Assembly: GCF_044324785.1 (NCBI RefSeq)
Contig: NZ_CP172127.1
Direction: 5' to 3' (one strand)
Source: Escherichia coli
GTDB taxonomy: Bacteria > Pseudomonadota > Gammaproteobacteria > Enterobacterales > Enterobacteriaceae
DNA: 64,000 nucleotides
Part shown: in pieces, positions 32,885-49,405 of the stretch
How the letters are laid out: every line of letters begins with the position of its first letter
Numbering within the stretch: the first letter of the stretch is position 1
Made by a program: the position numbers and the translations under genes
Notes under the pieces: generated by a model
The model's input: the letters and a program-made list of their open reading frames with translations, nothing else
What the model was told of the DNA's origin: nothing
Database searches by the model: none

Positions 32885-33313
32885 CTATTTTGTCTGGTTT
32901 TTGGCTTCAAGTAGTTCTTTTAGCAGTAGATCGAAGTGCTCTCTTTTTTCTTTTAGCTCATTGATTAGTTTATTTTTTTCGCTCTCAGGCAGTCCTCTGA
33001 ATAGTTGCAGTAGAGCCTGTTCTTGTGGGGTTAGTTCTTGATTGTAATTACCGGGGTGTAGCGTGGATTCATCCAAATATTCTCCTTCATTCATGAAGAA
33101 AAAATGAACAGGGTATCCGGTCACTTTTGCTAGCTTGTCTAATTTATCTTTTCTTGGCGTTACCCCATTACACCATGCCTGAACTGATTGAGCTGTAACC
33201 CCAATATGGCGAGCTAACTCAGATTGAGACCAGCCTAAGTCTTTTAGAATCCGTTGTAGTCGGCTAGCAAAAGCCATGTTTTTCGTTTTTGTGTTCATAC
33301 CGTAAGGATACAA
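32885..33313 (-). CDS. prophage repressor (XRE-family HTH, cI-like, no S24 peptidase domain); start uncertain (TTG 33313, ATG 33298 or 33277)
   Basis: HTH motif GWSQSELARHIGVTAQSVQAWCNG; divergent from Cro-like gene. Confidence 0.75.
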   Translation of the reverse strand: MYPYGMNTKTKNMAFASRLQRILKDLGWSQSELARHIGVTAQSVQAWCNGVTPRKDKLDKLAKVTGYPVHFFFMNEGEYLDESTLHPGNYNQELTPQEQALLQLFRGLPESEKNKLINELKEKREHFDLLLKELLEAKNQTK

Positions 33314-39447: not shown

Positions 39448-40371
39448 TTATTGGTTTCTGAGGAAAGCGATTCTTGAAAGGGTCATTTGCGTCTGGCAGT
39501 CGACCATTTTCTTGACTTCAGCATCTGTTCCCTGCATTGAAACTTTACCGCACATAGCATCCTTAGTTTTGATCCACTGACGCTGAGAAGGCAGCAAATC
39601 TTTTTTCTTCGCCGGGGTTAACTTGCTCCAGACGGTACTCAAATCAGAGTCGGCATTCGCAAATGCCATTCGGGACTGATCAAGGCTGTCAGCTTTTTGT
39701 GGCTGAAGTTGTGCCTGTCTCTCTATTTGCTTCTCCGCCTCATACTTAGCCTGTTCCTGCGCCCTGAGTTGCACCTGTTGTTCCGCTTCAATTTGGCTCT
39801 GTTGGGCATCCTTAGCCTGCTGGATTTTCTGCTGCTCAACGATCGGGTTGATAATAGAAAGTGATGTCAGTAAAGCGGCGCCCACTGATATCGGATTATC
39901 AGAAGAGGTTTTTACAAAAACGTTTTTCTGATCGTCGGTCGCCTGCACGGTGTAGGTGATACGTTTGGAAAAGGCGTTTGCGTTGTTCTCCAAAAACAGG
40001 CTTTCCATTTGCTTGTCGAGATTACGATTAAAATTCTTTCTGTAATCATCAGAAAGCTGGACGTATTCGTTCGCAGGTAGAGTCATCGTCACGGTCCCTT
40101 CACAAGTTTTCATTGTGCTGCCCGTGTCACTTGATGTTGTGGAGATTTCAGAGATGGCTAGTTTGATCTTGTCCAATGTGCTTCGTTTGGTCTGATTAGT
40201 GACATCAGGGTATTTATCGACCTGTTCAGAGAGTCCTTCATAAGCAGATTTTTTTAATAAATCCATAAGCGCTGACTGGGTTATTTCCGAAGAACAACCG
40301 ATCACATCTTTTTTGTTATCACAGCCTGTAAGGGCAATGGCGAGTAAGAGTACTGAGTATTTTAATCTCAT
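39448..40371 (-). CDS. lipoprotein with C-terminal DUF1311/LprI-like domain
   Basis: signal peptide plus lipobox LTGC; Gln-rich coiled region; C-terminal SQRQWIKTKDAMC...C pattern. Confidence 0.65.
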   Translation of the reverse strand: MRLKYSVLLLAIALTGCDNKKDVIGCSSEITQSALMDLLKKSAYEGLSEQVDKYPDVTNQTKRSTLDKIKLAISEISTTSSDTGSTMKTCEGTVTMTLPANEYVQLSDDYRKNFNRNLDKQMESLFLENNANAFSKRITYTVQATDDQKNVFVKTSSDNPISVGAALLTSLSIINPIVEQQKIQQAKDAQQSQIEAEQQVQLRAQEQAKYEAEKQIERQAQLQPQKADSLDQSRMAFANADSDLSTVWSKLTPAKKKDLLPSQRQWIKTKDAMCGKVSMQGTDAEVKKMVDCQTQMTLSRIAFLRNQ

Positions 40372-40996
40372 GAATTCCCTTTAGAGTAAGGATTGGTTTT
40401 TAAGACGCGGTCTGTAATCAGTTCCGAGAGCTACAGTAAACAACGCTGAGCACTGAACGCATCACAGGCAAGGTAAAGGCGATATCGGCAAAGGCTGTGA
40501 AACCTTTAATTCAACAGATGGAAACGGTATGCGCAGGATCCTGTAACGACGCTCCCAAAACCGGAAACCTGTAAGGCATGTTTTCGCTGCTGAACTTAAT
40601 ATACGAACCTGCACTATCATGAACATATTTTATATCGTTATACCCCGAGTGATTGTGCCCGGCAATGGATAGTGTCCTGGAGGAACTATTTCTACTGTAA
40701 AAGGTAGACATTTAATTTCAGTGTGGAATTATTCCCTGCTGTTAATAACCATGGCTCTATATGGCACCGAGCGGACTAGTTAACTTGCCTGAAAGCCGCT
40801 ATGAGTGAGGAGCGAATATTGGCACGAGAGGATACCTGAACCATTTTTTGGACATGCGCTAAAAGCGAATGATTAGTTTTATCGGAATATTTACAGTATA
40901 CTTACAAGGCAAGCTTGGCGTGCCGTCTTGGGCGAGATTGCTTAAATTATTTTGTGGATATATCATTCAAACAAAAGATAATAAAATGAGGTTGTT

Positions 40997-41194
40997 ATGT
41001 CATATATTCGCGTAGAGAAAGATGGCCTTCAGTATGAAGCAGAATACTTCCGTAAAGAGGATATGGTCACAGTCTTTGGGGTTAGAGGAGGGCATTCCAG
41101 CGTGGTTCTAAATGGAATGACAGAAGTCGCGGCTGCTCGTACTGCGTTACGAAATCTTATTAGAGAAAATCAGGTTGATCCTCTAACTGATTAA
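40997..41194 (+). CDS. hypothetical small protein (AT-rich cassette)
   Basis: 65-aa ORF. Confidence 0.35.
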   Translation: MSYIRVEKDGLQYEAEYFRKEDMVTVFGVRGGHSSVVLNGMTEVAAARTALRNLIRENQVDPLTD

Positions 41195-41398
41195 AAATAA
41201 GCCATCTTAACTGAGAGCATATTTTGATATAATTTAGATTAAATCTATTTTGAAGGTTAGTTTGGGATGAGAAGATTACATCAAAACCGTTATTACTAGC
41301 AATAAGTTGTGTAAATCAAATAATACATAATCATGTGGTAACATATACTAAGCGTAGTAAAGTTTTTATATATTCCTGTAACTTTGTGAGAAACTTCC

Positions 41399-42064
41399 AT
41401 GAAAGCCGACAACTTAAGAATTATAGAGAATGGCAAATATGTTTTCGATATGTTCTTGGATACTGGTGAATTTTACTATACAAGTCATGCCTTTGACACG
41501 AGAGAAGATGCAAAAAGCTGGATGGAAGAATGGCAGATTTGGGCAAATAATGTATCGAGTGGGAAAGTAAGTAGTATTTATTATATTTTACAAGTGCCTG
41601 ATACTTGGGCCGGTTCTTCAGATAAAAATAACCCTTACTCGGGACTTTATGTGAAAATAGGGCGTTCCAATAATGTGCTAAAAAGGTTGTCTAACCTGCA
41701 GACAGGTGCATTTGGTCAATTAATATTACACGCTTTGGAACCTGGTGGTTCAGAAAAAGAAAACTATCTTCATGAAAAATTTAGCAACGAAAGACGTCAA
41801 GGTGAATGGTTTGTTTGTACTAAGGAACTTACCAAGCATATATTTACAACATGGTTTAAAAACAAAATGCTCCCACCAGAACATCAAATAAAAATAATGC
41901 AGCTCGCAGAAAGAATAGGTATTTATTCGCATGTTCATACACTAATGGGGGGGAAGCCAGACTTAGTAAACCCATCTATTAGTGAACCTTGGGAATGCGA
42001 AAAATATGTTTTGGTTGATATGATTTATAGCTCTTTAGCAAAGCAAGTTAATCATAAAAAATAA
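41399..42064 (+). CDS. T5orf172 (GIY-YIG superfamily)-like protein
   Basis: 221 aa; core GLYVKIGRSNNVLKRLSNLQTG...ENYLHEKFSNERRQGEWFVC matches T5orf172/MUG113 pattern. Confidence 0.5.
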   Translation: MKADNLRIIENGKYVFDMFLDTGEFYYTSHAFDTREDAKSWMEEWQIWANNVSSGKVSSIYYILQVPDTWAGSSDKNNPYSGLYVKIGRSNNVLKRLSNLQTGAFGQLILHALEPGGSEKENYLHEKFSNERRQGEWFVCTKELTKHIFTTWFKNKMLPPEHQIKIMQLAERIGIYSHVHTLMGGKPDLVNPSISEPWECEKYVLVDMIYSSLAKQVNHKK

Positions 42065-42384
42065 AGTGTTACATTTTAACCATACAATTATTGATTCACT
42101 AATGAAGAGGTGATTTAAACGTATGAAGTTTTAATAAGCTCCAAGAATATTTTGTCATACATGGGTTAAAGAGTTATATAATAATATCTGCTTCTGGAAT
42201 ACAGCAGACAAGCACCTGCAGATAAAGGTCTGCTGAGAGCGAGAAGCGGATCATACGTTGGAAGTTGTTTAGGCAAATACGTTATAAACGTATTTGATTA
42301 AATTTACTTGGATCATAGTCTTCAATAACGCTTTATTATATTGTTTTTCATGCAGCAAACAGGTTTACAGGTAGGTAATAAGCT

Positions 42385-42789
42385 ATGAGTGGATGGAAAG
42401 AGTCTTTTACATTAGCAGAACAGATACAATTAGCATTAAATTTAGGTTATGAGGCTGTACCAGATGAAGAGGCATATACTGGGGCATACTTCATTAAAGG
42501 TGGTAAGAAGTGGATCTTTAACATCATCGGTCTCAAAAAGACATTGAATATATCTTCAGATGATGAACTAAGAGGGCAGGATTATGATGTTGATATGTAT
42601 TTCGAAATTCGCCAAAATTGGGCACAATACCAAGATATGATCTTTGGAAGCGAAGATATCACTCCTTCACCTAAAAATGAACTTACTTCAATTTACCATG
42701 ACCTGCAGGTAACGGATGAACCCAGGGAAATGGTGTATCTTTCTGATGGGATGTGGCTGGATCCCAACGGACGAATTGTACAACGATAG
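42385..42789 (+). CDS. hypothetical protein (AT-rich cassette)
   Basis: 134-aa ORF. Confidence 0.4.
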   Translation: MSGWKESFTLAEQIQLALNLGYEAVPDEEAYTGAYFIKGGKKWIFNIIGLKKTLNISSDDELRGQDYDVDMYFEIRQNWAQYQDMIFGSEDITPSPKNELTSIYHDLQVTDEPREMVYLSDGMWLDPNGRIVQR

Positions 42790-42898
42790 CACTCGAACAC
42801 ACTCAGTAATCGTCTATAAGGCCAGCACTTGTTACTTGGTCATTTGGGGTTGCTGGTCTTCTCCATTAAATCGACTAAAGTCTGTTCCATAGAGAGAG

Positions 42899-43504
42899 TT
42901 ACTTGCGTTTAAAAAGGTATTTTGTCACGACCAGCACGAGGCCGAATACCTCTGTCAAAGTACCGCCCATGTACAACTGGAGCGTTAAGTCTTTAAATAC
43001 AAGCCATTCAGCACCAGTGGCAAAAAATACACCATTCATTATCAAAAGCTGGCAAGCAAGGATAATAAGGAACCATTTGCCATAGCGTTTTTTTAGATCG
43101 ATTTCAGCTTCAAAATCTTTGTTGTTGAGTTGTTTGCGCTCATGCTCAGTATCAAGTGAATTCACCTGTTTCACAGATGTGAACTCGGTCAAGATTTTAC
43201 TCTCAGTACGGGTGACTTGTTGAGAGGGGGTAGGAATTGGAATTCTTTTGATTGACGCAGCTACAGCCATTTTGCGAGCTTCGGCAGCTCTTTTTCTGGC
43301 TATTCCGTGAATACGGGCAGACGGTTTTTTTGGAGCATGCGAAACCTTTGTCTGAGGTGAAGTTTCGTCAGGAGACTGAACCGGAGTTTCATCCTCCTCC
43401 GGCTCAACCTCTTCTGCTAACTGACGGTGTAGGTTGAGGGAATCCTTCAGTCGGCGTGCAACTTCCTGTTTGAAACGGCTGTTAAAATCGTCATCCGATG
43501 GCAT
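42899..43504 (-). CDS. membrane protein with hydrophilic N-terminal region and two C-terminal TM helices
   Basis: 201 aa; TM segments WFLIILACQLLIMNGVFFATGA and LYMGGTLTEVFGLVLVVTKYLF; starts 10 nt after peptidase gene. Confidence 0.6.
   Translation of the reverse strand: MPSDDDFNSRFKQEVARRLKDSLNLHRQLAEEVEPEEDETPVQSPDETSPQTKVSHAPKKPSARIHGIARKRAAEARKMAVAASIKRIPIPTPSQQVTRTESKILTEFTSVKQVNSLDTEHERKQLNNKDFEAEIDLKKRYGKWFLIILACQLLIMNGVFFATGAEWLVFKDLTLQLYMGGTLTEVFGLVLVVTKYLFKRK
42901..42978. repeat. intact direct-repeat partner of 39300..39377 (encodes last 26 codons of the two-TM protein)
   Basis: reverse-complement translation gives QLYMGGTLTEVFGLVLVVTKYLFKRK*. Confidence 0.75.
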
Positions 43505-43513
43505 TCTAAAGCG

Positions 43514-44002
43514 TTACCCCAACCTCAAGTTCTTTAAACGATAAGTCATCGCATCGTCAGATACGCCAAAATGATGCGCCATTATATAACTTGGTTGGCC
43601 GTCAGCGTGCAGTTTTCTGACCTCATCTACCGGCATCAGAAGTTCTGCTGCGAACTTGTTCGCAAAAATTTCATCAGGATGCGTTCCGGCGCTTGCGGTT
43701 TCGCCACGTAAATCAACGTACTCATATTCATCGCTATGCGATGCTTGCCGGGCGATGTAATGCCCCAACTCATGCCCACATGAAAAACGTTGACGAACTT
43801 TGTTGTCATCACTGTTTAGAAAGATCGCTGGATCTTGATCTTTTTGTTTAATCAGTGCGCCAGAAACTTTCCCAGGAAGATCGGTAATAAAAACATCTAA
43901 TCCCATGTCGTGAGCAATTTTCGCTGGATCAACAGGGAAACCACGCCCGCACCAGAACGTGTCCAGCACTCGCCGGGCGTGCTCTCTTGGGTTGGTAGCC
44001 AT
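43514..44002 (-). CDS. ImmA/IrrE-family (M78-like) zinc metallopeptidase, stand-alone
   Basis: 162 aa; HEXXH as CGHELGHYI and downstream EIFANKFAAELLMP. Confidence 0.7.
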   Translation of the reverse strand: MATNPREHARRVLDTFWCGRGFPVDPAKIAHDMGLDVFITDLPGKVSGALIKQKDQDPAIFLNSDDNKVRQRFSCGHELGHYIARQASHSDEYEYVDLRGETASAGTHPDEIFANKFAAELLMPVDEVRKLHADGQPSYIMAHHFGVSDDAMTYRLKNLRLG

Positions 44003-44569
44003 AGCTCCTCCAGTTACTGCATTACGATTATTGGTCGAAATATAGACAACATGTTCCGTACCACATTCCTGTAAAAGTGCAAATTCTGCACTTCTGGTAC
44101 GATATTAACTGTTAGTAGTAAAGTCTTCCAGATAAATCACTTTAAAATCGTGTGAATTGCTTGCTTTTTACGCTGCATTGTGGATGGCTCAATGTTTCCA
44201 GTAAAAACATACATGATAATCATGACATTAGTGGTTTTTTAGGCGTCCATCTGTTTCTTAAAAAAATGGATGCCACAAGCGCCCGGATGAGAACAGGAAG
44301 GGAAGGCTATTACATGTGTGATTTATTACATCTGTAAAAAAATACAGATCTAACCTGATCTTTTCATTGAAGTTTTTCTTGGTCCTGGATAGGATCTGGA
44401 GGTTGCGAAGATTTTAGAGTCGCATCAAAGGGAAAGCCCTGACAGCGCCAACTGTCAGGGCCATACAAAAACATCGGTTAATGCTTTCGTTGAGATCTCG
44501 GTTTGGGAGATTACCTCAACCGGGATCCCGTGTAAAGCATTCATTGCCGAAAATGATATAGGTCAATGA

Positions 44570-44848
44570 ATGAAACACATCTGTAAAAAGTCACATCGTC
44601 ACGACAGTATGTTTGATGTTCTTTCCGCAAATCAGGGGAACGTTGGGCGGCACAAATGTTGTGGATGTGCCTATGATAAAGGTATGTGGCACGCATTAAT
44701 TGGCGTTCCACGTGCGGTTGATGACTCTGTTTTAGGTGATTTGCCCGAAAGCCAGGCCGGGCATGTACGTCATAAAGATGCTTTTGAAGCATATAACATG
44801 GGATATGACCATGGGATGCATAAAAAAGCCTACGGCATGGCCTCATAA
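44570..44848 (+). CDS. hypothetical Cys/His-rich small protein
   Basis: 92-aa ORF followed by a clear terminator. Confidence 0.4.
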   Translation: MKHICKKSHRHDSMFDVLSANQGNVGRHKCCGCAYDKGMWHALIGVPRAVDDSVLGDLPESQAGHVRHKDAFEAYNMGYDHGMHKKAYGMAS

Positions 44849-44868
44849 CCAGGTGTAACTTATTAACT

Positions 44869-44896
44869 AACCCGCTTCGGCGGGTTTTCTTTTTTA
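44869..44896 (+). terminator. rho-independent terminator
   Basis: CCCGC-TTCG-GCGGG hairpin followed by TTTTCTTTTTT. Confidence 0.7.
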
Positions 44897-44966
44897 TAGA
44901 ACCCTGCGATGTGAAAACGAATAATAAATTGTGCAAATAGTGCAGTTTTTATTATTCGAGGTAATT

Positions 44967-45608
44967 ATGAAAACCTTCTATGAGGGCTGGCCTGAAACTT
45001 TCGTTAGCCGGTTAGATATGTTACGGGCGTTGGATGATCGCGGTTCGACCCGGAGGCTCTATCTTGAGCGGACCGGAGCAATATTTGGCGCTCTGGCAGA
45101 AGAGATACGTACAGCCGTTGCCGGGCATCCTGAAACTGACGCGAGTGAACTTGATATCGGGCCGCTATATCGCTATTACAAACGTGGAGAAAAGGGGGAT
45201 CCGCTGGCTGACTTACTTATTAAATTGGCTCCACCAACCTGTGAACGGGTTCGTATATCTCCTGAAGTGTACACAATCCCGTATCTGTTTTTTGCACTGT
45301 TGATAGCGCAAGGCGCTGACAACGATGCCCGAGATTTTTTCAATATGATGATGCGACCGTTGATCATCGCCTACCGCTTCAAACAACTGGCGCGCTACCT
45401 TGGCACGAAGGGCGGAGGACGACCACAGCACAGATTAAAAAGTGAAGCCATTGAACTGGCTGATCGTTTTTTTACTGAAAACCCGACTGCGCCATTATCG
45501 CGTGGTGTGCAATACATATCCGGTATTTTTGTGGCGAAATACTCCGATCCACCTGCAGCCTCGACGATTAGAAAATGGTTAATTTCAATTTACAGGAGTG
45601 ATAAATAA
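44967..45608 (+). CDS. hypothetical protein
   Basis: 213 aa from MKTFYEGWPETF with GAGGT RBS. Confidence 0.45.
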   Translation: MKTFYEGWPETFVSRLDMLRALDDRGSTRRLYLERTGAIFGALAEEIRTAVAGHPETDASELDIGPLYRYYKRGEKGDPLADLLIKLAPPTCERVRISPEVYTIPYLFFALLIAQGADNDARDFFNMMMRPLIIAYRFKQLARYLGTKGGGRPQHRLKSEAIELADRFFTENPTAPLSRGVQYISGIFVAKYSDPPAASTIRKWLISIYRSDK

Positions 45609-45759
45609 TGACCATAAACGGTTTAATCCCCTATAAAACCGTTTAATAAAATTCACGACGTGAATATAATTGTTCATTATTCCCTCATTGTATCTGGCGT
45701 TATGACAAATGCCATAAAATACTGTATAAATGTACAGGCGGTGGCGTTAGGGGGAAGAC

Positions 45760-45939
45760 ATGAATATTCAAGAATCTATAGGCGAACTACCGGAAACATG
45801 CCGGGCTGTTATCAAGCGTAAGGACGGACACATCGTTGGTGTGCGTGTTCTGACTGATGATGAACGGATTGCCAGCCTGATGGCGTTTCTCGAGTTGGCA
45901 GAAATAGCTGGATATACTATTACACCCCCTGACGCGTAA
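45760..45939 (+). CDS. hypothetical small protein (59 aa, below track threshold)
   Basis: manually translated MNIQESIGELPETCRAVIKRKDGHIVGVRVLTDDERIASLMAFLELAEIAGYTITPPDA; GGGGAAG RBS. Confidence 0.35.
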   Translation: MNIQESIGELPETCRAVIKRKDGHIVGVRVLTDDERIASLMAFLELAEIAGYTITPPDA

Positions 45940-46016
45940 AACACGGTATAATATCGGTGCTGGATTGAACACCCGGCACCATTTTCTGAACACTGCCGCG
46001 CCACCTGGAGTTAACC

Positions 46017-46613
46017 ATGGCGCAGCATTCATTTATCAGGGTATCCGGCGGTTCGCTAATACCCGCGACACCAGACACGCAACGCTGGTTGACTGAACGA
46101 GTCAAACCAGGTGCTGTTGTGTATGCAGATTTCAAACAGGCGCGTAATCCCGCGTTTCATCGTAAATTTTTCTCACTTCTCAACCTGGGCTTTGATTACT
46201 GGCATCTCTCCGGAGGGGCTATTTCTCCTGCAGAGCGCGAACTGGTTCACGGCTACGTTAAGTTACTGGCTTATTACGGTGGGCATGGTGATGTCATGGC
46301 TGAGCTGGCTGATCAGTATCTTCTCGATGAGTCGGAAAAGCGCGCGGGGAATATCAGTGCGGTTAAGTCGTTCGAGGCGTTTCGCGCCTGGGCGACTATG
46401 GAAGCTGGATTTTATGACGTTCATCAGATGCCAGACGGCAGTGTGATGCGCGTACCTCGTTCAATCTCGTTTGCTGCGATGGACGATCTTGAGTTCGGTC
46501 AACTGTATTCAGCCGTTTTAGATGTGCTGTGGAATTATATTTTGTTCCGCACGTTTGCCTCTCAGGAGGCCGCTGAAAATGCCGCCGCGCAGCTGCTGGA
46601 TTACACATCATGA
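46017..46613 (+). CDS. DUF1367 phage protein (YbcN-like)
   Basis: FIRVSGGSLIPA...ARNPAFHRKFF closely matches YbcN-type proteins. Confidence 0.7.
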   Translation: MAQHSFIRVSGGSLIPATPDTQRWLTERVKPGAVVYADFKQARNPAFHRKFFSLLNLGFDYWHLSGGAISPAERELVHGYVKLLAYYGGHGDVMAELADQYLLDESEKRAGNISAVKSFEAFRAWATMEAGFYDVHQMPDGSVMRVPRSISFAAMDDLEFGQLYSAVLDVLWNYILFRTFASQEAAENAAAQLLDYTS

Positions 46614-46903
46614 AAAAAATCGACCTGAGAAAAGCTGCACGCGGTCGCGCTTGTACTGTGCGTATCCCCGGTGTGTGCAATCACAATCCTGAAACCAGTG
46701 TACTGGCTCACTACCACCTCGCCGGAACATGCGGAACAGCAATCAAACCACACGATATGCAGGGCGCTATCGCCTGCAGTGCGTGTCACGATGCTATCGA
46801 CGGACGTACAAAAACAGATTACGAGCGTGATTCCTTATTACTGATGCACACAGAGGGCGTTTTAAGGACGTTGGCCATCTGGCGTAACGAGGGATTCATC
46901 TGA
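46610..46903 (+). CDS. DUF1364 phage protein (YbcO-like, putative nuclease)
   Basis: 97 aa with Cys/His-rich pattern of YbcO-type proteins. Confidence 0.7.
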   Translation: MKKIDLRKAARGRACTVRIPGVCNHNPETSVLAHYHLAGTCGTAIKPHDMQGAIACSACHDAIDGRTKTDYERDSLLLMHTEGVLRTLAIWRNEGFI

Positions 46904-47574
46904 TGAGTAACGAGTATTTGTTGGAATATACCCGCATAAAACTGCGCGCTGCATTGCGGGATTTGTCTGGTGGTTCTAAGGGGCAGCTGGAAGCATTGTG
47001 TGAGCACCCGCCGGCAGACAAAAACGCATATCCACGCAAACATATTCATCGTGTGCAACTGGAGGACCGGACCGTTGATGCTCTGGTTACGCCAGTTTAC
47101 GCCCTGGAAAGTTTCAGCAGACGTCGTCCCGCGCCGCCGATGAATGATTTTGAATTCGCTGATTCATCGTGGCGCCGCGCCGTGAATTCGCTCGACGTTA
47201 GCCAGCAGGCGTGGTTGCGCTATTGCTACGGTGGTCACCTGGCGTTCAAACACCAAACAGCTATTTGTGAGGCTGTCTGGAGTCGCTATAAAGGACACAT
47301 CCCCGCGTCAACTCAGAGAAAAGTAGCTAAGCGCCTGCTTTCGTTGGTGTGGTTGTCCGTGCAGGCGGTTGCAGCAGCAAATAAACGCGAGGATTTTAAG
47401 GAGATGGCTGGATCTGCGCTAGCTGGAATGTTGTCTGTTTCTCGTTCCACCTGGTGCGAAACATACTCCCCGCACTGGGTAGGAATGAAAGAGGCGGTGA
47501 GAGCACTTGATGAAATGGCACTTCTTGCAACTTTGCATCATTATCAAAACCATTTAGACGACGTTTGCGTATAA
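46903..47574 (+). CDS. putative late-gene antiterminator (Q-like, positional)
   Basis: 223-aa ORF immediately upstream of the lysis cassette. Confidence 0.45.
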   Translation: MSNEYLLEYTRIKLRAALRDLSGGSKGQLEALCEHPPADKNAYPRKHIHRVQLEDRTVDALVTPVYALESFSRRRPAPPMNDFEFADSSWRRAVNSLDVSQQAWLRYCYGGHLAFKHQTAICEAVWSRYKGHIPASTQRKVAKRLLSLVWLSVQAVAAANKREDFKEMAGSALAGMLSVSRSTWCETYSPHWVGMKEAVRALDEMALLATLHHYQNHLDDVCV

Positions 47575-47935
47575 TGCTTGCAAAACCGAACAAAACAGGC
47601 CATATTAAACGCTAATTTGGTATGTTGCCAAATTTCTAAGAACCTCGCCACGGCGGGGTTTTGTCGTTTCTGAATCAGGAAAAATCATGTCTGAACCTCT
47701 AACCGCTGGCGTTGCTGCTGGCTCGGCGGGGGTGACGTTTGCTGCGTTATTTCCTGAGGCAACACCTGCAGTGATGATCTGTGCGCTGGCAGGCGCAGCT
47801 CTCTATGTGTTGTCGTCCGGGCAGCATCGATTCTGGAAGCAGGTTAGACTGGCCCCCTGAATCTCCAGACAACCAATATCACTTAAATAAGTGATAGTCT
47901 TAATACTAGTTTTTAGACTAGTCATTGGAGAGCAG

Positions 47936-48301
47936 ATGATTGATGTCTTAGGACCGGAGAAACGCAGACGGCGTACTACACAGGAAAAGATCGCTATTGT
48001 TCAGCAGAGTTTTGAACCGGGAATGACGGTCTCCCTTGTTGCCCGGCAACACGGTGTGGCAGCCAGCCAGTTATTTCTCTGGCGCAAGCAATACCAGGAG
48101 GGAAGTCTTACTGCTGTGGCCGCAGGAGAGCAGGTCGTTCCTGCCTCTGAACTTGCTGCTGCCATGAAGCAGATTAAAGAACTCCAGCGCCTGCTCGGCA
48201 AAAAAACGATGGAAAATGAACTCCTTAAAGAAGCCGTTGAATACGGGCGTGCAAAAAAGTGGATAGCGCACGCGCCCTTATTGCCCGGGGATGGGGAGTA
48301 A
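47936..48301 (+). CDS. insC: IS2 transposase OrfA
   Basis: [29 protein letters not shown]... recognised as IS2 InsC. Confidence 0.9.
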
Positions 48302-49164
48302 GCTTAGTCAGCCGTTGTCTCCGGGTGTCGCGTGCGCAGTTGCACGTAATTCTCAGACGAACCGATGACTGGAAAGATGGTCGCCGCAGCCGTCACTCAG
48401 ATGATACGGATGTGCTTCTCCGTATACACCATGTTATCGGAGAGCTGCCCACGTATGGTTATCGTCGGGTATGGGCGCTGCTTCGCAGACAGGCCGAACT
48501 TGATGGTATGCCTGCGATCAATGCCAAACGTGTTTACCGGATCATGCGCCAGAATGCGCTGTTGCTTGAGCGAAAAACCGCTGTACCGCCATCGAAACGG
48601 GCACATACTGGCAAAGTGGCCGTGAAAGAAAGCAATCAACGATGGTGCTCTGACGGGTTCGAGTTCCGCTGTGATAACGGAGAAAAACTGCGAGTCACGT
48701 TCGCGCTGGACTGCTGTGACCGTGAGGCACTGCACTGGGCAGTCACTACGGGCGGCTTCGACAGTGAAACAGTACAGGACGTAATGCTGGGAGCGGTGGA
48801 ACGCCGCTTCGGCAACGAGCTTCCGGCGTCTCCAGTAGAGTGGCTGACGGATAATGGTTCATGCTACCGGGCTAATGAAACACGGCAGTTTGCCCGGATG
48901 TTGGGGCTTGAACCGAAGAACACGGCGGTGCGGAGTCCGGAGAGTAACGGCATAGCAGAGAGCTTCGTGAAAACGATAAAGCGTGACTACATCAGTATCA
49001 TGCCTAAACCAGACGGGTTAACGGCAGCAAAGAACCTTGCAGAGGCGTTCGAGCATTATAACGAATGGCATCCGCATAGTGCACTGGGTTATCGCTCGCC
49101 ACGGGAATATCTGCGGCAGCAGGCCAGTAATGGGTTAAGTGATAACAGGTGTCTGGAAATATAG
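48259..49164 (+). CDS. insD: IS2 transposase OrfB (DDE catalytic domain)
   Basis: [23 protein letters not shown]... recognised as IS2 InsD; overlaps orfA in -1 frame. Confidence 0.9.
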
Positions 49165-49405
49165 GGGCAAATCCACAGGTTATTTTCGCACTCATTTCGT
49201 TTGTTGGCGGTGTGTATTGCGCTGAGACAGCATCAGCCATCATTACCGGTATTCTGAACGCGGTGCTGAGTCACCTGAACCCTCCCGTAACAGTAAAAGT
49301 CTCTCCCGCCATTGGTGCACTGGTTGCATCAGTAATCAGCGTTACATCACTGTTGCGGATCATGTCACAAGCTCGTTTATGGAAATCAGATAAGGGGATG
49401 AAATA

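What the first reader, a model, noticed from the sequence alone, without database searches (positions are those of the whole stretch)
44570..45608. Two unannotatable genes at the edge of the accessory hotspot
A 92-aa Cys/His-rich protein with its own terminator and a 213-aa protein lie between the peptidase/TM operon and the nin-like genes, on the opposite strand to that operon. They may be further cargo of the same variable region.
Basis: inference. Interest (0 to 1): 0.3.

Follow-up and report, generated by a model that had tools for sequence, protein, structure and literature searches.

The report
Antisense-RNA gene cassette plus prophage regulator
The two "unannotatable" prophage genes are real but different: the 92-aa gene is a mobile cassette for a small zinc-type protein that carries a conserved, unlisted antisense small RNA, while the 213-aa gene is a fixed backbone gene, probably a DNA-binding regulator, next to the prophage's DNA-damage induction switch.

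Summary
Both ORFs are real, at the stated coordinates, on the stated strand, and under purifying selection. Neither matches Pfam, NCBIfam, PADLOC, the PDB or BFVD; both sit in PHROG families of unknown function.

ORF-A (44570-44848, 92 aa) is variable cargo. It is present in about 20 of 444 related E. coli prophages and occupies many different slots in other prophages. It travels as a unit with:
- a sense promoter;
- a roughly 170-nt structured leader in which the ribosome-binding site and AUG lie in a hairpin;
- a conserved minus-strand promoter (TTTACA-17-TAATCT, geometry kept in 37 of 37 distinct leaders);
- a covarying terminator hairpin.

The minus-strand elements predict a roughly 75-nt cis-antisense RNA that is absent from Rfam. 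The layout resembles SOS-linked type I toxin-antitoxin loci such as tisB/istR-1 and symE/symR. Toxicity is untested.

ORF-B (44967-45608, 213 aa) is not cargo. It occurs in 438 genomes, against 443 that carry the adjacent DUF1367-YbcO-Q block. It has a helical N-terminal domain and a C-terminal helix-turn-helix-like domain. In prophages it always lies directly upstream of a LexA box and a small Rem-like antirepressor gene. Its role as a regulator is inferred.

The parts
44326..44354 (+). Perfect LexA-box-like palindrome CTGTAAAAAAATACAG (44332-44347). It lies in the 17-nt spacer of a promoter-like pair, TTACAT ... TCTAAC, in a recA-like layout.
   Evidence: This is one of only two CTGT-N8-ACAG sites in the 64 kb window. 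It is present in relatives that carry ORF-A (L002, L005, L026) and absent in those without it. The homologous Salmonella and Cronobacter segment is conserved but the box is degenerate there. The promoter reading is inference.
44368..44396 (+). Sense promoter of the ORF-A cassette: TTGAAG-17-TAGGAT.
   Evidence: A TTGAnn-16..18-TAnnAT pair sits at a fixed distance from the AUG (end of the -10 is 173-181 nt upstream) in 35 of 37 distinct leaders. The scan tool flags the aligned site in L043 as TTGATC-18-TATAAT, 10 of 12 matches. The window copy scores only 8 of 12 and was not flagged.
44403..44569 (+). Roughly 167-nt structured 5' leader of the ORF-A mRNA. The transcription start is inferred.
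   Evidence: The leader is conserved with ORF-A in different phage contexts. Hairpins recur in every per-sequence fold. 96% of cells are paired, against 34-51% in slid controls.
44538..44572 (+). Hairpin holding the ribosome-binding site and the AUG: CATTCATTG / CAATGAATG.
   Evidence: A 9-nt, 100% complementary inverted repeat. A hairpin occupies this place in nearly all variants, with different compensated stems.
44508..44536 (-). Antisense promoter: -35 TTTACA (44536->44531), 17-nt spacer, -10 TAATCT (44513->44508).
   Evidence: TTTACA is present in 37 of 37 distinct leaders. The spacer is exactly 17 nt in all, and the -10 always keeps T1, A2 and T6. The tool flags it in L043 at 9 of 12 matches. 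It is kept in distant homologues whose leaders cannot be aligned.
44427..44501 (-). Predicted cis-antisense small RNA of about 75 nt: a 5' GAGAUCUC tail, stem-loop 1, then a terminator.
   Evidence: Predicted fold -31.6 kcal/mol, z = -4.9. No Rfam family matches here. The ends are inferred from the promoter and terminator and have not been mapped.
44435..44462 (-). GC-rich terminator hairpin followed by CTTTCCCTTT on the minus strand.
   Evidence: Flagged as terminator-like on the minus strand. There are 23 distinct compensated stems. Four to five pairs change on both sides. Distant homologues have a hairpin followed by TTTTTT.
44570..44848 (+). ORF-A: a 92-aa basic Cys/His-rich protein. Invariant residues include C5, H9, C30 and C33. 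It contains an internal tandem repeat, LPExQxG..RHK followed by a helix.
44869..44894 (+). Intrinsic terminator AACCCGCTTCGGCGGGTT followed by a T-run. It ends ORF-A and marks the left edge of the conserved backbone.
   Evidence: BLAST matches in genomes lacking ORF-A start at query position 570, which is window 44869.
44918..44958 (.). 41-bp palindrome (18-nt arms) lying 9-49 nt upstream of the ORF-B start. It is a candidate operator or a 5'-UTR hairpin.
   Evidence: The outer arms GAATAAT...ATTATTC recur upstream of diverged ORF-B homologues (L018, L021, L100). Its function is inference.
44967..45608 (+). ORF-B: a 213-aa protein with a helical N-terminal domain (conserved Cys92) and a C-terminal three-helix HTH-like domain (GGGRPxHRLK...STIRKWL).
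45615..45645 (+). Terminator-like palindrome directly after the ORF-B stop codon: TAAACGGTTTAAT / ATAAAACCGTTTA.
   Evidence: An inverted repeat occupies this place after every ORF-B homologue. This matches the Gifsy description of a terminator-like palindrome preceding the LexA box (PMC3121763).
45702..45737 (+). SOS promoter ATGACA-17-TATAAA with the LexA box CTGTATAAATGTACAG (45722-45737) over the -10.
   Evidence: A perfect box lies in the same gap in all prophage loci with an ORF-B homologue that were checked, except L103.
45760..45939 (+). 59-aa ORF, probably a Rem/GfoA-type small antirepressor. This is context for ORF-B, not part of the finding.
   Evidence: hhalign against the Rem group gives probability 87%, E 4e-6. 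There is no direct Pfam or BLASTP match. The family is phrog_340.

Best explanation
**(1) ORF-A is a self-contained, horizontally mobile moron cassette regulated by a cis-antisense RNA.**
- Its parts are an upstream LexA-type box, a sigma-70 sense promoter, a roughly 170-nt folded leader in which the ribosome-binding site and AUG are held in a hairpin, the 92-aa gene, and a terminator.
- Convergent to it, inside the leader, a conserved promoter and Rho-independent terminator specify an antisense RNA of about 75 nt.
- This RNA is complementary to the upstream part of the leader, not to the start site.
- The inferred mechanism is that the antisense RNA pairs with the leader and keeps translation off, by blocking an upstream ribosome-loading or anti-sequestering segment and/or by triggering duplex cleavage. 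Protein would be made only when sense transcription outruns the antisense RNA, for example after DNA damage in the E. coli version.
- The product is a small basic protein with a Cys-His-Cys-Cys metal site and two copies of an SQxG-x-RHK-helix unit. It probably binds nucleic acid.
- The cassette works like SOS-linked type I toxin-antitoxin loci (tisB/istR-1, symE/symR). Whether the protein is toxic is unknown.

**(2) ORF-B is a fixed backbone gene, not cargo.**
- It is an insulated transcription unit, with a terminator on each side and a 41-bp palindrome over its upstream region.
- It encodes a protein with a new helical domain and a C-terminal helix-turn-helix.
- It sits directly upstream of the LexA-controlled, Rem-like antirepressor-DUF1367-YbcO-Q operon of a prophage whose repressor is DicA-like and non-cleavable.
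- It most likely acts as a DNA-binding regulator linked to the induction switch. That role is inferred from fold and synteny only.
For: **ORF-A is mobile.**
- The full region is present in 20 of 444 related E. coli prophages.
- It lies in the cI-to-N slot in Salmonella and Cronobacter phages.
- Elsewhere it sits next to umuDC/humD-like genes, lysis genes, a methyltransferase, or IS/integrase genes.

**The leader travels with the gene**.

**Promoters.**
- A sense promoter sits at a fixed distance from the AUG in 35 of 37 distinct leaders.
- The antisense promoter has TTTACA in 37 of 37 distinct leaders, a spacer of exactly 17 nt, and a -10 that always keeps T1, A2 and T6, even where the surrounding sequence differs.
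- The same geometry, with canonical hairpin-plus-TTTTTT terminators, holds in homologues at 48-56% protein identity whose leaders cannot be aligned.

**Terminator hairpin.**
- 23 compensated stem variants; segment-fold z = -4.8.
- 4-5 pairs change on both sides; 89-96% of cells are paired against 34-53% in slid controls.
- The T-tract is on the minus strand only.

**Start-site hairpin and novelty.**
- The ribosome-binding site and AUG lie in a hairpin with varied stems across variants.
- No Rfam family matches the region.

**Precedents.**
- The LexA box is one of two perfect sites in the window.
- Precedents are antitoxin RNAs that pair far upstream of a sequestered ribosome-binding site, and the SOS-controlled non-membrane toxin SymE (PMC4147584).

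**ORF-A protein.**
- Invariant C5, H9, C30 and C33, and an internal repeat.
- Confident AlphaFold2 model.
- pN is far below pS.

**ORF-B.**
- 438 genomes carry it, against 443 with the adjacent backbone block.
- The gene pair with a LexA box and a small ORF is conserved in different prophage backbones.
- In L103 the small ORF carries a recorded Pfam Rem hit.
- The 59-aa family matches the Rem group at 87% probability, E 4e-6.
- The prophage repressor is 32% identical to DicA.
- The Gifsy and Qin antirepression models come from PMC3121763 and PMC10448788.
- The C-terminal HTH-like fold is supported.
- Distant homologues sit between an integrase gene and an alpA/HTH_17 gene in islands.
Against: **ORF-A cassette.**
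- No transcript data exist. Promoter strength, RNA ends and RNA-RNA pairing are all predicted.
- The window's own sense promoter is weak (8 of 12 matches) and the scan tool did not flag it or the antisense promoter in the window.
- The invariant TGTAAA and AGATTA could instead be constrained by the sense-strand helices.
- Hairpin covariation does not say which strand uses the hairpin.
- The LexA box is perfect only in the E. coli version and lies upstream of the better-conserved sense promoter. It could equally serve the divergent M78 peptidase operon. In 14 other loci the nearby box belongs to a divergent umuD-like operon.
- ORF-A is not hydrophobic, unlike most type I toxins, and nothing shows it is toxic.

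**ORF-B.**
- No HTH family is detected by sequence.
- The model is of moderate quality (pLDDT 74.7) and the fold matches are partial.
- Adjacency to the SOS module could be simple inherited synteny.
- L103 has a Rem gene downstream but no perfect LexA box.
- Qin has rem without any ORF-B homologue.
Confidence: 0.55

Rival explanations
1. The conserved region upstream of ORF-A is only a cis-acting structured 5' UTR, such as a thermosensor, a ligand- or protein-responsive leader, or an element autoregulated by the ORF-A protein. No antisense RNA is made. The GC hairpin is a structural or stabilising element of the mRNA.
For: - The sense promoter sits at a fixed distance from the AUG.
- The ribosome-binding site and AUG are held in a hairpin in all variants.
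- There are long complementary segments, AATGCTTT...AAAGCATT and UUGAGAUCUC/GAGAU..CUCAA.
- A basic zinc-type protein could bind its own leader (inference).
Against: - It does not explain why a minus-strand TTTACA-17-TAnnCT geometry is kept in 37 of 37 leaders and in distant homologues with unrelated leader sequences.
- It does not explain why the hairpin is followed by a T-tract on the minus strand only. In distant homologues this is TTTTTT, and it lies about 80 nt downstream of that promoter.
Confidence: 0.15
2. One reading: both genes are accessory cargo of the variable hotspot, for instance a two-gene defence or anti-defence unit.
For: - Both lack annotation.
- They are adjacent and co-oriented.
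- They lie at the edge of a region whose content differs between relatives.
- ORF-B is itself flanked by terminators, as a moron would be.
Against: - ORF-B is present in 438 genomes against 443 with the backbone block, while ORF-A is present in about 20.
- The two are separated by a terminator.
- ORF-A homologues elsewhere are never next to ORF-B homologues, and the reverse also holds, outside this E. coli family.
- Neither hits PADLOC.
Confidence: 0.07
3. ORF-B has no link to the induction switch. It is an ordinary early or nin-region gene, for example a replication or recombination accessory or a host-takeover factor, that happens to be the last gene before the terminator preceding the SOS promoter. 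Its adjacency reflects inherited synteny.
For: - The closest homologues all come from related enterobacterial lambdoid prophages.
- rem in Qin has no ORF-B upstream.
- The small downstream gene differs between loci while ORF-B stays the same.
- L103 lacks a perfect LexA box.
Against: - The pairing persists where both the upstream genes and the downstream nin genes differ: DUF1367/YbcO/Q, NinB/NinE/NinG, or a methyltransferase with lysis genes.
- Distant homologues again sit immediately upstream of the element's small switch-type gene, AlpA/HTH_17, next to an integrase gene.
- The HTH-like C-terminus and an upstream palindrome suggest a regulator.
Confidence: 0.3
4. ORF-A is not a toxin-like effector. 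It is a lysogen-expressed regulator or SOS modulator acting on LexA, RecA, UmuD or another phage's repressor, or an anti-defence protein. Antisense control merely sets its level, as sar does for ant in P22 or OOP does for cII in lambda.
For: - It sits in the cI-to-N slot used by lysogen-expressed genes.
- In 14 loci it lies divergent from umuD'-like/SOS operons that carry LexA boxes.
- It is a basic, metal-binding small protein.
Against: Nothing here excludes it directly. It shares the antisense architecture with the main explanation and differs only in what the protein does. Its promiscuous spread as a compact two-component cassette fits an addictive or selfish module at least as well.
Confidence: 0.25

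Closest known systems
tisB/istR-1 (and zorO/orzO, dinQ/agrB) type I toxin-antitoxin loci of E. coli
   Same: - The mRNA has a long, folded 5' UTR with the true ribosome-binding site sequestered.
- A small constitutive antitoxin RNA pairs far upstream of the start site rather than over it.
- The protein gene is under LexA control (PMC4147584).
- Here the predicted antisense RNA covers roughly +24 to +98 of the leader and does not reach the ribosome-binding site or AUG. The latter lie in a hairpin, and a perfect LexA box lies upstream.
   Different: - The RNA here is fully cis-antisense, from convergent overlapping promoters, rather than a divergent gene with short complementarity.
- The protein is 81-92 aa, basic and Cys/His-rich, with no transmembrane helix.
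- There is no sequence or Rfam relationship.
- Toxicity, a standby site and RNase III cleavage are untested.
symE/symR (SOS-induced, non-membrane type I toxin with a cis-antisense RNA)
   Same: - A cis-encoded antisense RNA of about 75-77 nt lies opposite the 5' part of the mRNA.
- The promoter is LexA-repressed.
- The product is comparatively large, non-hydrophobic and associated with nucleic acid (PMC4147584).
   Different: - SymR overlaps the symE ribosome-binding site and start codon, whereas here the overlap lies upstream of them.
- SymE has an AbrB/MazE-like fold according to the literature, while ORF-A has a zinc-type site and no PDB fold match.
- symR was not found at this locus. A weak SymR hit in L081 is a separate element.
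Phage 'morons' (autonomous promoter-gene-terminator units inserted between backbone genes)
   Same: - ORF-A has its own promoter and terminator.
- It is present or absent among otherwise near-identical prophages.
- It is inserted at several classical moron sites: cI to N, Q to lysis genes, and tail-fibre or attachment ends.
   Different: It carries a second, antisense gene and an elaborate leader, which ordinary morons lack.
Gifsy-type / Qin Rem-DicA SOS antirepression modules
   Same: This is the context of ORF-B.
- The repressor is non-cleavable and DicA-like.
- Outside the immunity region lies a terminator-like palindrome, then a LexA box, then a small antirepressor gene (PMC3121763; PMC10448788; window).
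   Different: - Gifsy phages place a dinI homologue between the box and the antirepressor, and Qin has hokD-relBE upstream of rem.
- This family instead has the conserved 213-aa HTH-like ORF-B immediately upstream, and the SOS promoter appears to continue into DUF1367-YbcO-Q.
- The 59-aa protein is only a remote Rem relative.
Homeodomain-like / resolvase-type three-helix HTH domains (Hin, IS3 OrfA, mariner)
   Same: - ORF-B has a GGRP motif before helix 1 and an S-T-I-R-K-W recognition-helix end.
   Different: - No Pfam HTH model reaches significance.
- There is a long loop before helix 3.
- The 145-aa N-terminal helical domain matches nothing in the PDB or BFVD.

Membership tests
Type I toxin-antitoxin system | A small antisense RNA gene is encoded at the locus, with its own promoter and terminator. 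| tested here: met
   This is met at the sequence level only. The minus-strand TTTACA-17-TAnnCT promoter is kept in 37 of 37 distinct leaders, followed by a covarying terminator hairpin with a T-tract. The arrangement is also kept in distant homologues. No transcript data exist.
Type I toxin-antitoxin system | The RNA is complementary to the toxin mRNA and represses its translation or stability. | not testable with these tools
   Complementarity is automatic, because the RNA is cis-antisense to about 75 nt of the leader. Repression is inferred by analogy with tisB/istR-1.
Type I toxin-antitoxin system | The protein is toxic when over-produced. It is usually a small hydrophobic peptide. | not testable with these tools
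   Toxicity was not tested. The protein is basic and non-hydrophobic, so the usual membrane-peptide feature is not met. SymE and RalR are precedents for non-membrane toxins.
Known antitoxin or sRNA families in Rfam 15 (Sok, SymR, IstR, Sib, Rdl, OhsC, OrzO and others) | A covariance-model match at the locus. | tested here: not met
   No match with E <= 1 in window 44300-44600. None overlaps the element in 7 other loci, apart from a 23-bit Ysr35 hit (gathering score 428) in L078.
Phage moron | An autonomous unit (promoter plus terminator) with presence/absence polymorphism between related phages. | tested here: met
   Terminator. Promoter consensus. Present in 20 of 444 genomes. Found in multiple unrelated insertion contexts. 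Expression in the lysogen was not tested.
Zinc-binding small protein (treble-clef or zinc-ribbon-like, or ZAS-like) | Four conserved Cys/His ligands with the spacing C-x3-H ... C-x2-C. | tested here: inconclusive
Anti-phage defence systems in PADLOC-DB | A profile match to a known or candidate defence protein. | tested here: not met
   ORF-A and ORF-B give no hits. The neighbouring M78 peptidase matches CapP and RmrA models.
Helix-turn-helix transcription regulators (ORF-B) | A recognisable HTH domain by sequence profile. | tested here: not met
   No Pfam or NCBIfam hit for ORF-B. Among 37 family members, only one weak HTH_16 hit, at E = 0.02.
Helix-turn-helix transcription regulators (ORF-B) | A three-helix DNA-binding fold. 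| tested here: inconclusive
Gifsy/Qin-type LexA-controlled antirepressor module (context of ORF-B) | A non-cleavable repressor, and a LexA box plus a small antirepressor gene outside the immunity region. | tested here: met
   The repressor is 142 aa and 32% identical to DicA. A perfect LexA box lies over the -10, 22 nt before the 59-aa ORF. The arrangement is conserved in nearly all ORF-B loci.
Rem/GfoA antirepressor family (the 59-aa neighbour) | Homology to Rem (Pfam PF27490). | tested here: inconclusive
   No Pfam hit and no BLASTP hit to K-12 Rem. The profile-profile comparison gives probability 87%, E 4e-6 over 44 columns. The neighbour of the ORF-B homologue in L103 has a recorded Rem hit.

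The most novel reading that the evidence does not exclude
ORF-A and its antisense RNA found a new family of type I toxin-antitoxin-like modules. The effector would be a small zinc-binding, nucleic-acid-binding protein with a previously unseen fold, rather than a membrane peptide. It would be spread as a moron through enterobacterial prophages and wired to the SOS response in E. coli. Separately, ORF-B would be a previously unrecognised second regulator of the LexA/antirepressor induction switch, in the way Mnt and Arc control ant in P22. Its distant relatives would play the same gate-keeping role upstream of alpA in integrase-borne islands or satellites.
Probability: 0.2. Interest if true: 0.7.

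Novelty: new variant of a known kind. Interest (0 to 1): 0.5.

Why it matters
- **New RNA and protein families.** If the antisense RNA is real, this is an uncatalogued small-RNA family that is absent from Rfam 15. It would also be a new class of antisense-controlled small protein, carried by hundreds of E. coli, Salmonella, Klebsiella, Cronobacter, Yersinia and Serratia prophages at classical lysogenic-conversion sites. Its effector differs from the usual membrane peptides. It would add an SOS-linked, prophage-borne module relevant to persistence, prophage stability or phage-phage conflict.
- **Induction control in ST131 prophages.** ORF-B occurs in about 8% of complete E. coli genomes, including ST131 strains such as EC958. 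It sits at the induction switch of a DicA/Rem-type prophage. Knowing whether it gates the antirepressor would bear on how these common prophages are induced by DNA-damaging antibiotics.
- **Annotation.** The ORF-A start codon is miscalled in RefSeq relatives. The hotspot boundary can be placed exactly at the terminator at 44869.

Tried and rejected
- **Profile searches.** Pfam, NCBIfam and PADLOC gave nothing for either protein.
- **PDB sequence search.** It gave only chance-level hits: CalG2 glycosyltransferase at E = 0.024 for ORF-A, and a designed ankyrin and eIF2B-beta for ORF-B. These were rejected as short, low-scoring segments.
- **Full-HMMER profile search for ORF-B.** It found only 54 representatives, all about 200-235 aa and without domains.
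- **The search for related loci.** The divergent ORF-B alignment failed because it has no conserved stretch. The close alignment returned only close relatives.
- **RNAalifold on the MAFFT leader alignment.** It was useless because the variable stems are out of register. It was replaced by anchored per-segment folding and by named-structure pair counts.
- **AAACSGTTT repeats as an ORF-B operator pair.** The two repeats after ORF-B are the only ones in the window. Where the centre is not palindromic the copies are inverted (L017, L018, L104), which fits a hairpin or terminator better. L105, with four copies, leaves the operator idea open.
- **YnfU.** It was checked as a possible zinc-protein relative and is unrelated.
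- **Leader conservation.** I tested whether the ORF-A leader is more conserved than the coding sequence. Overall it is not, at 0.57-0.68 identity against 0.59-0.67; only sub-blocks are invariant.
- **Literature.** Searching for the two PHROG identifiers found nothing.
- **The 131-aa minus-strand ORF at 44541-44936.** It is an antisense shadow of ORF-A with no support.
Full report
**Observation**

The window carries a lambdoid-type prophage. Its gene order is as follows:
- a DicA-like repressor (32885-33313, minus strand), then YdaS/YdaT, RepO and DnaB;
- a variable region;
- a minus-strand M78 (ImmA/IrrE) peptidase plus a 201-aa TM protein (42899-44002);
- the two ORFs of the finding;
- a 59-aa ORF, DUF1367, YbcO and Q (45760-47574);
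- an IS2-like element.

A hairpin with a T-run follows ORF-A at 44869-44886. Both are real genes. Homologues at 60-80% identity give pN 0.18-0.29 against pS 0.75-0.91, and both protein alignments show conserved columns. RefSeq relatives start ORF-A at Met14. Cys5 and His9 are invariant across 28 homologues, so the 92-aa form is right.

**Annotation status**

- Neither protein matches Pfam, NCBIfam or PADLOC.
- Both fall in PHROG families of unknown function, phrog_3941 and phrog_5215.
- Every public name is "hypothetical protein".
- PDB sequence searches gave only chance-level segments.

**Cargo or backbone?**

In 5,426 complete E. coli genomes, the 1.6-kb stretch has a match in 444. Only 20 of these hold the part with ORF-A. 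In the others the match begins at window 44869, the first base of the terminator. In a few it begins at about 44776, which leaves a 3' remnant of ORF-A.

In SK1144 and in phage 705R4 the slot holds a 234-nt minus-strand gene. In CFSAN061769 it holds unrelated cargo.

ORF-B alone is found in 438 genomes at 95% or higher nucleotide identity. The DUF1367-YbcO-Q block is found in 443. A diverged allele at about 72% protein identity fills the same place in other relatives.

ORF-A is therefore variable cargo. ORF-B is a backbone gene and the first fixed gene to the right of the hotspot.

**The ORF-A protein**

- The family is confined mainly to Enterobacterales: 37 clusters in 5.8 billion proteins, and 65 viral loci.
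- Invariant residues are C5, H9, R10, G26-R-H-K-C30, C33, S61-Q-A, V66-R-H-K-D70 and A74.
- Read directly from the sequences, the protein is a tandem duplication of a unit LP-E-[SN]-Q-x-G-x-x-R-H-K followed by a helix (C-x-G-C-A-[YF]-E..G in the first copy, D-A-F-E-A-Y..GY in the second).
- The first copy has acquired a C-x3-H ... C-x2-C metal-type site.
- AlphaFold2 gives a confident model (pLDDT 89.7, pTM 0.84).
- A small, basic, metal-binding protein with paired RHK loops suggests nucleic-acid binding. That is inference.

**ORF-A moves with a conserved non-coding region**

In Salmonella and Cronobacter phages the homologue lies directly after the S24-type cI gene, on the same strand. This is the slot between cI and N that lambda uses for rexAB. 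In other viral contigs its neighbours are umuDC/humD-like genes, lysis genes, a DNA methyltransferase, or IS/integrase genes.

Despite these different neighbours, about 250 nt upstream of the start codon align between the window and the Salmonella and Cronobacter copies. They also align across 37 distinct leaders.

On the plus strand a promoter TTGAnn-16..18-TAnnAT sits at a fixed distance from the AUG in 35 of 37 leaders (end of the -10 is 173-181 nt upstream). The scan tool flags the aligned site in L043 at 10 of 12 matches. The window copy, TTGAAG-17-TAGGAT (44368-44396), scores 8 of 12.

The resulting leader of about 167 nt folds into recurring hairpins. The last hairpin encloses the ribosome-binding site and AUG. 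In the window this is 44538-44546 paired with 44564-44572, 100% complementary. Its stem differs from group to group and is compensated.

**The antisense gene**

The most variable hairpin (window 44435-44462) has these properties:
- 23 distinct stem sequences, each perfectly compensated, with a segment-fold z of -4.8;
- 4-5 pairs changed on both sides on two independent alignments;
- 89-96% of cells paired, against 34-53% when the partners are slid.

Its T-tract (CTTTCCCTTT) is on the minus strand only, and the tool calls it a minus-strand terminator.

About 45 nt upstream on that strand, every one of the 37 distinct leaders has TTTACA. Exactly 17 nt follow, then a hexamer that always keeps T1, A2 and T6. 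The hexamer counts are TAATCT 23, TAGACT 8, TAGTCT 4, TAACCT 1 and TAGTAT 1. This holds across sub-families whose intervening sequence differs. The tool flags the site in L043.

Distant homologues at 48-56% protein identity have leaders that cannot be aligned. They still carry TTTACA or TTTACT, a 17-18 nt spacer, then TAGAAT, TACAAT or CACAAT, with the -35 lying 32-43 nt upstream of the ATG. About 80 nt downstream on the minus strand they have a canonical hairpin followed by TTTTTT.

I therefore infer a cis-antisense RNA of about 75 nt (window about 44501 to 44427). Its parts are a single-stranded 5' GAGAUCUC tail, an A/U-rich stem-loop and the terminator (fold -31.6 kcal/mol, z = -4.9). No Rfam 15 family matches it in the window or in seven other loci.

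It is complementary to the upstream two-thirds of the leader and not to the ribosome-binding site or AUG.

**How the cassette probably works (inferred)**

The arrangement has three features:
- a sequestered start site;
- an antisense RNA that pairs far upstream of it;
- convergent overlapping promoters.

This is the logic described for tisB/istR-1, zorO/orzO and dinQ/agrB. There the RNA competes with ribosome loading on an upstream site or triggers RNase III cleavage. SymE and RalR show that type I toxins need not be membrane peptides (PMC4147584).

The E. coli version has one of the only two perfect CTGT-N8-ACAG sites in the 64-kb window (44332-44347). The site lies in the spacer of a promoter-like TTACAT-17-TCTAAC, in a recA-like layout. 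The box came in with the cassette, because relatives without ORF-A lack it. It is degenerate in the Salmonella and Cronobacter copies, and it could serve the divergent peptidase operon instead.

Transcripts, pairing and toxicity are all untested. The claim is therefore "works like a type I toxin-antitoxin module", not "is one".

**ORF-B**

The family is small: 14 clusters by word search, and 54 representatives at E <= 0.001 among 1.84 billion proteins. All are about 200-235 aa.

The gene is insulated. It has the terminator at 44869 upstream and an inverted repeat directly after its stop codon (45615-45645). A 41-bp palindrome (44918-44958) lies just before its ribosome-binding site. The outer arms of that palindrome recur upstream of diverged homologues.

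**What lies next to ORF-B**

The second perfect LexA box of the window (45722-45737) overlaps the -10 of ATGACA-17-TATAAA, 22 nt before the 59-aa ORF.

Every prophage locus with an ORF-B homologue that I examined has the same order: ORF-B, palindrome, LexA box, then a small ORF of 59-77 aa. These loci are:
- E. coli: L001-L005, L091-L102 and L106-L110;
- Salmonella: L021 and L022;
- Klebsiella: L023 and L024;
- others: L014-L016 and L018-L020.

The order holds although the genes further upstream and downstream differ. L103 keeps the small ORF, which has a recorded Pfam Rem hit, but has no perfect box.

The 59-aa family aligns with a Rem group (K-12 Rem, L018, L103) at hhalign probability 87%, E 4e-6. 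BLASTP and Pfam do not see the relationship. The prophage repressor is 32% identical to DicA and has no peptidase domain.

This is the Gifsy/Qin scheme. A non-cleavable repressor is inactivated by a small antirepressor that LexA controls from outside the immunity region, and the box is preceded by a terminator-like palindrome (PMC3121763; PMC10448788).

Distant ORF-B homologues (17-25% identity) sit between an integrase gene and an AlpA/HTH_17 gene in islands integrated next to yicC. There too, ORF-B lies immediately upstream of a small switch-type gene.

I infer, with moderate confidence only, that ORF-B is a DNA-binding regulator associated with the element's induction switch. The alternative of plain inherited synteny keeps about 0.3.

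**Verdict**

- The unexpected part is the conserved antisense-RNA gene and folded leader attached to ORF-A. This makes it a new variant of the antisense-controlled (type I toxin-antitoxin-like) cassette, with an unusual zinc-type protein.
- All mechanistic steps beyond sequence and comparative evidence remain to be tested.

Noticed in passing
window 45702-45939: An SOS promoter (ATGACA-17-TATAAA) has a perfect LexA box over its -10 and is followed by a 59-aa ORF that is a remote Rem/GfoA-type antirepressor candidate. With the DicA-like repressor at 32885-33313 (minus strand), this indicates Gifsy/Qin-type antirepressor-mediated induction. No strong terminator was seen before DUF1367-YbcO-Q, so the same promoter probably feeds Q.
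   Followed up: partly
window 46125-46158 (inside the DUF1367 gene): CRISPR spacers annotated in several E. coli genomes (for example 2014C-3061, L725 and OkiPb01700) match this 34-nt stretch at 100%. E. coli CRISPR arrays therefore hold spacers against this prophage family.
   Followed up: no
window 47687-49403: An IS2-like IS3-family element (orfA/orfB at 47891-49164) splits the first holin gene (Phage_holin_8). Residues 1-56 lie at 47687-47854 and residues 52-127 at 49176-49403. The prophage is probably lysis-defective.
   Followed up: partly
window 39448-44002 and related loci L002-L005, L106-L110: The stretch left of ORF-A is a true cargo hotspot. The window has an LprI-like lipoprotein, a T5orf172/MUG113 221-aa protein and a 134-aa ORF. 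Relatives carry an AAA ATPase pair, a methyltransferase plus a SMEK protein, HNH plus GIY-YIG nucleases, or GmrSD.
   Followed up: partly
window 42899-44002 (minus strand): An M78 ImmA/IrrE peptidase has its best PADLOC hit to CapP (E 1.6e-25) and is co-transcribed with a 201-aa protein that has a C-terminal TM segment (phrog_5346). The pair is kept in several relatives independently of ORF-A. It lies divergent from the LexA-type box at 44332-44347 and may be SOS-controlled.
   Followed up: no
window 44869-44894 and L025 (K-12 Qin) about 5030-5055: The terminator after ORF-A (AACCCGCTTCGGCGGGTTTTC...) is the same hairpin sequence as the terminator after hokD, just upstream of rem, in the Qin prophage of K-12.
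   Followed up: no
L081 1417-1488 (+): A SymR-like match (50 bits, below the gathering score of 61, E 1.5e-6) lies 1.4 kb from that contig's ORF-A copy, next to a minus-strand 189-aa ORF. It is a separate, probably symE/symR-type, locus.
   Followed up: no
L105 2514-2662, and the L017, L104 and L103 intergenic regions after ORF-B homologues: In the island L105, four copies of AGCGGTT/AACCGCT lie between the ORF-B homologue and alpA, the last one over a TATATAAG -10-like site. This looks more like an operator array than a terminator and would fit ORF-B binding there.
   Followed up: no
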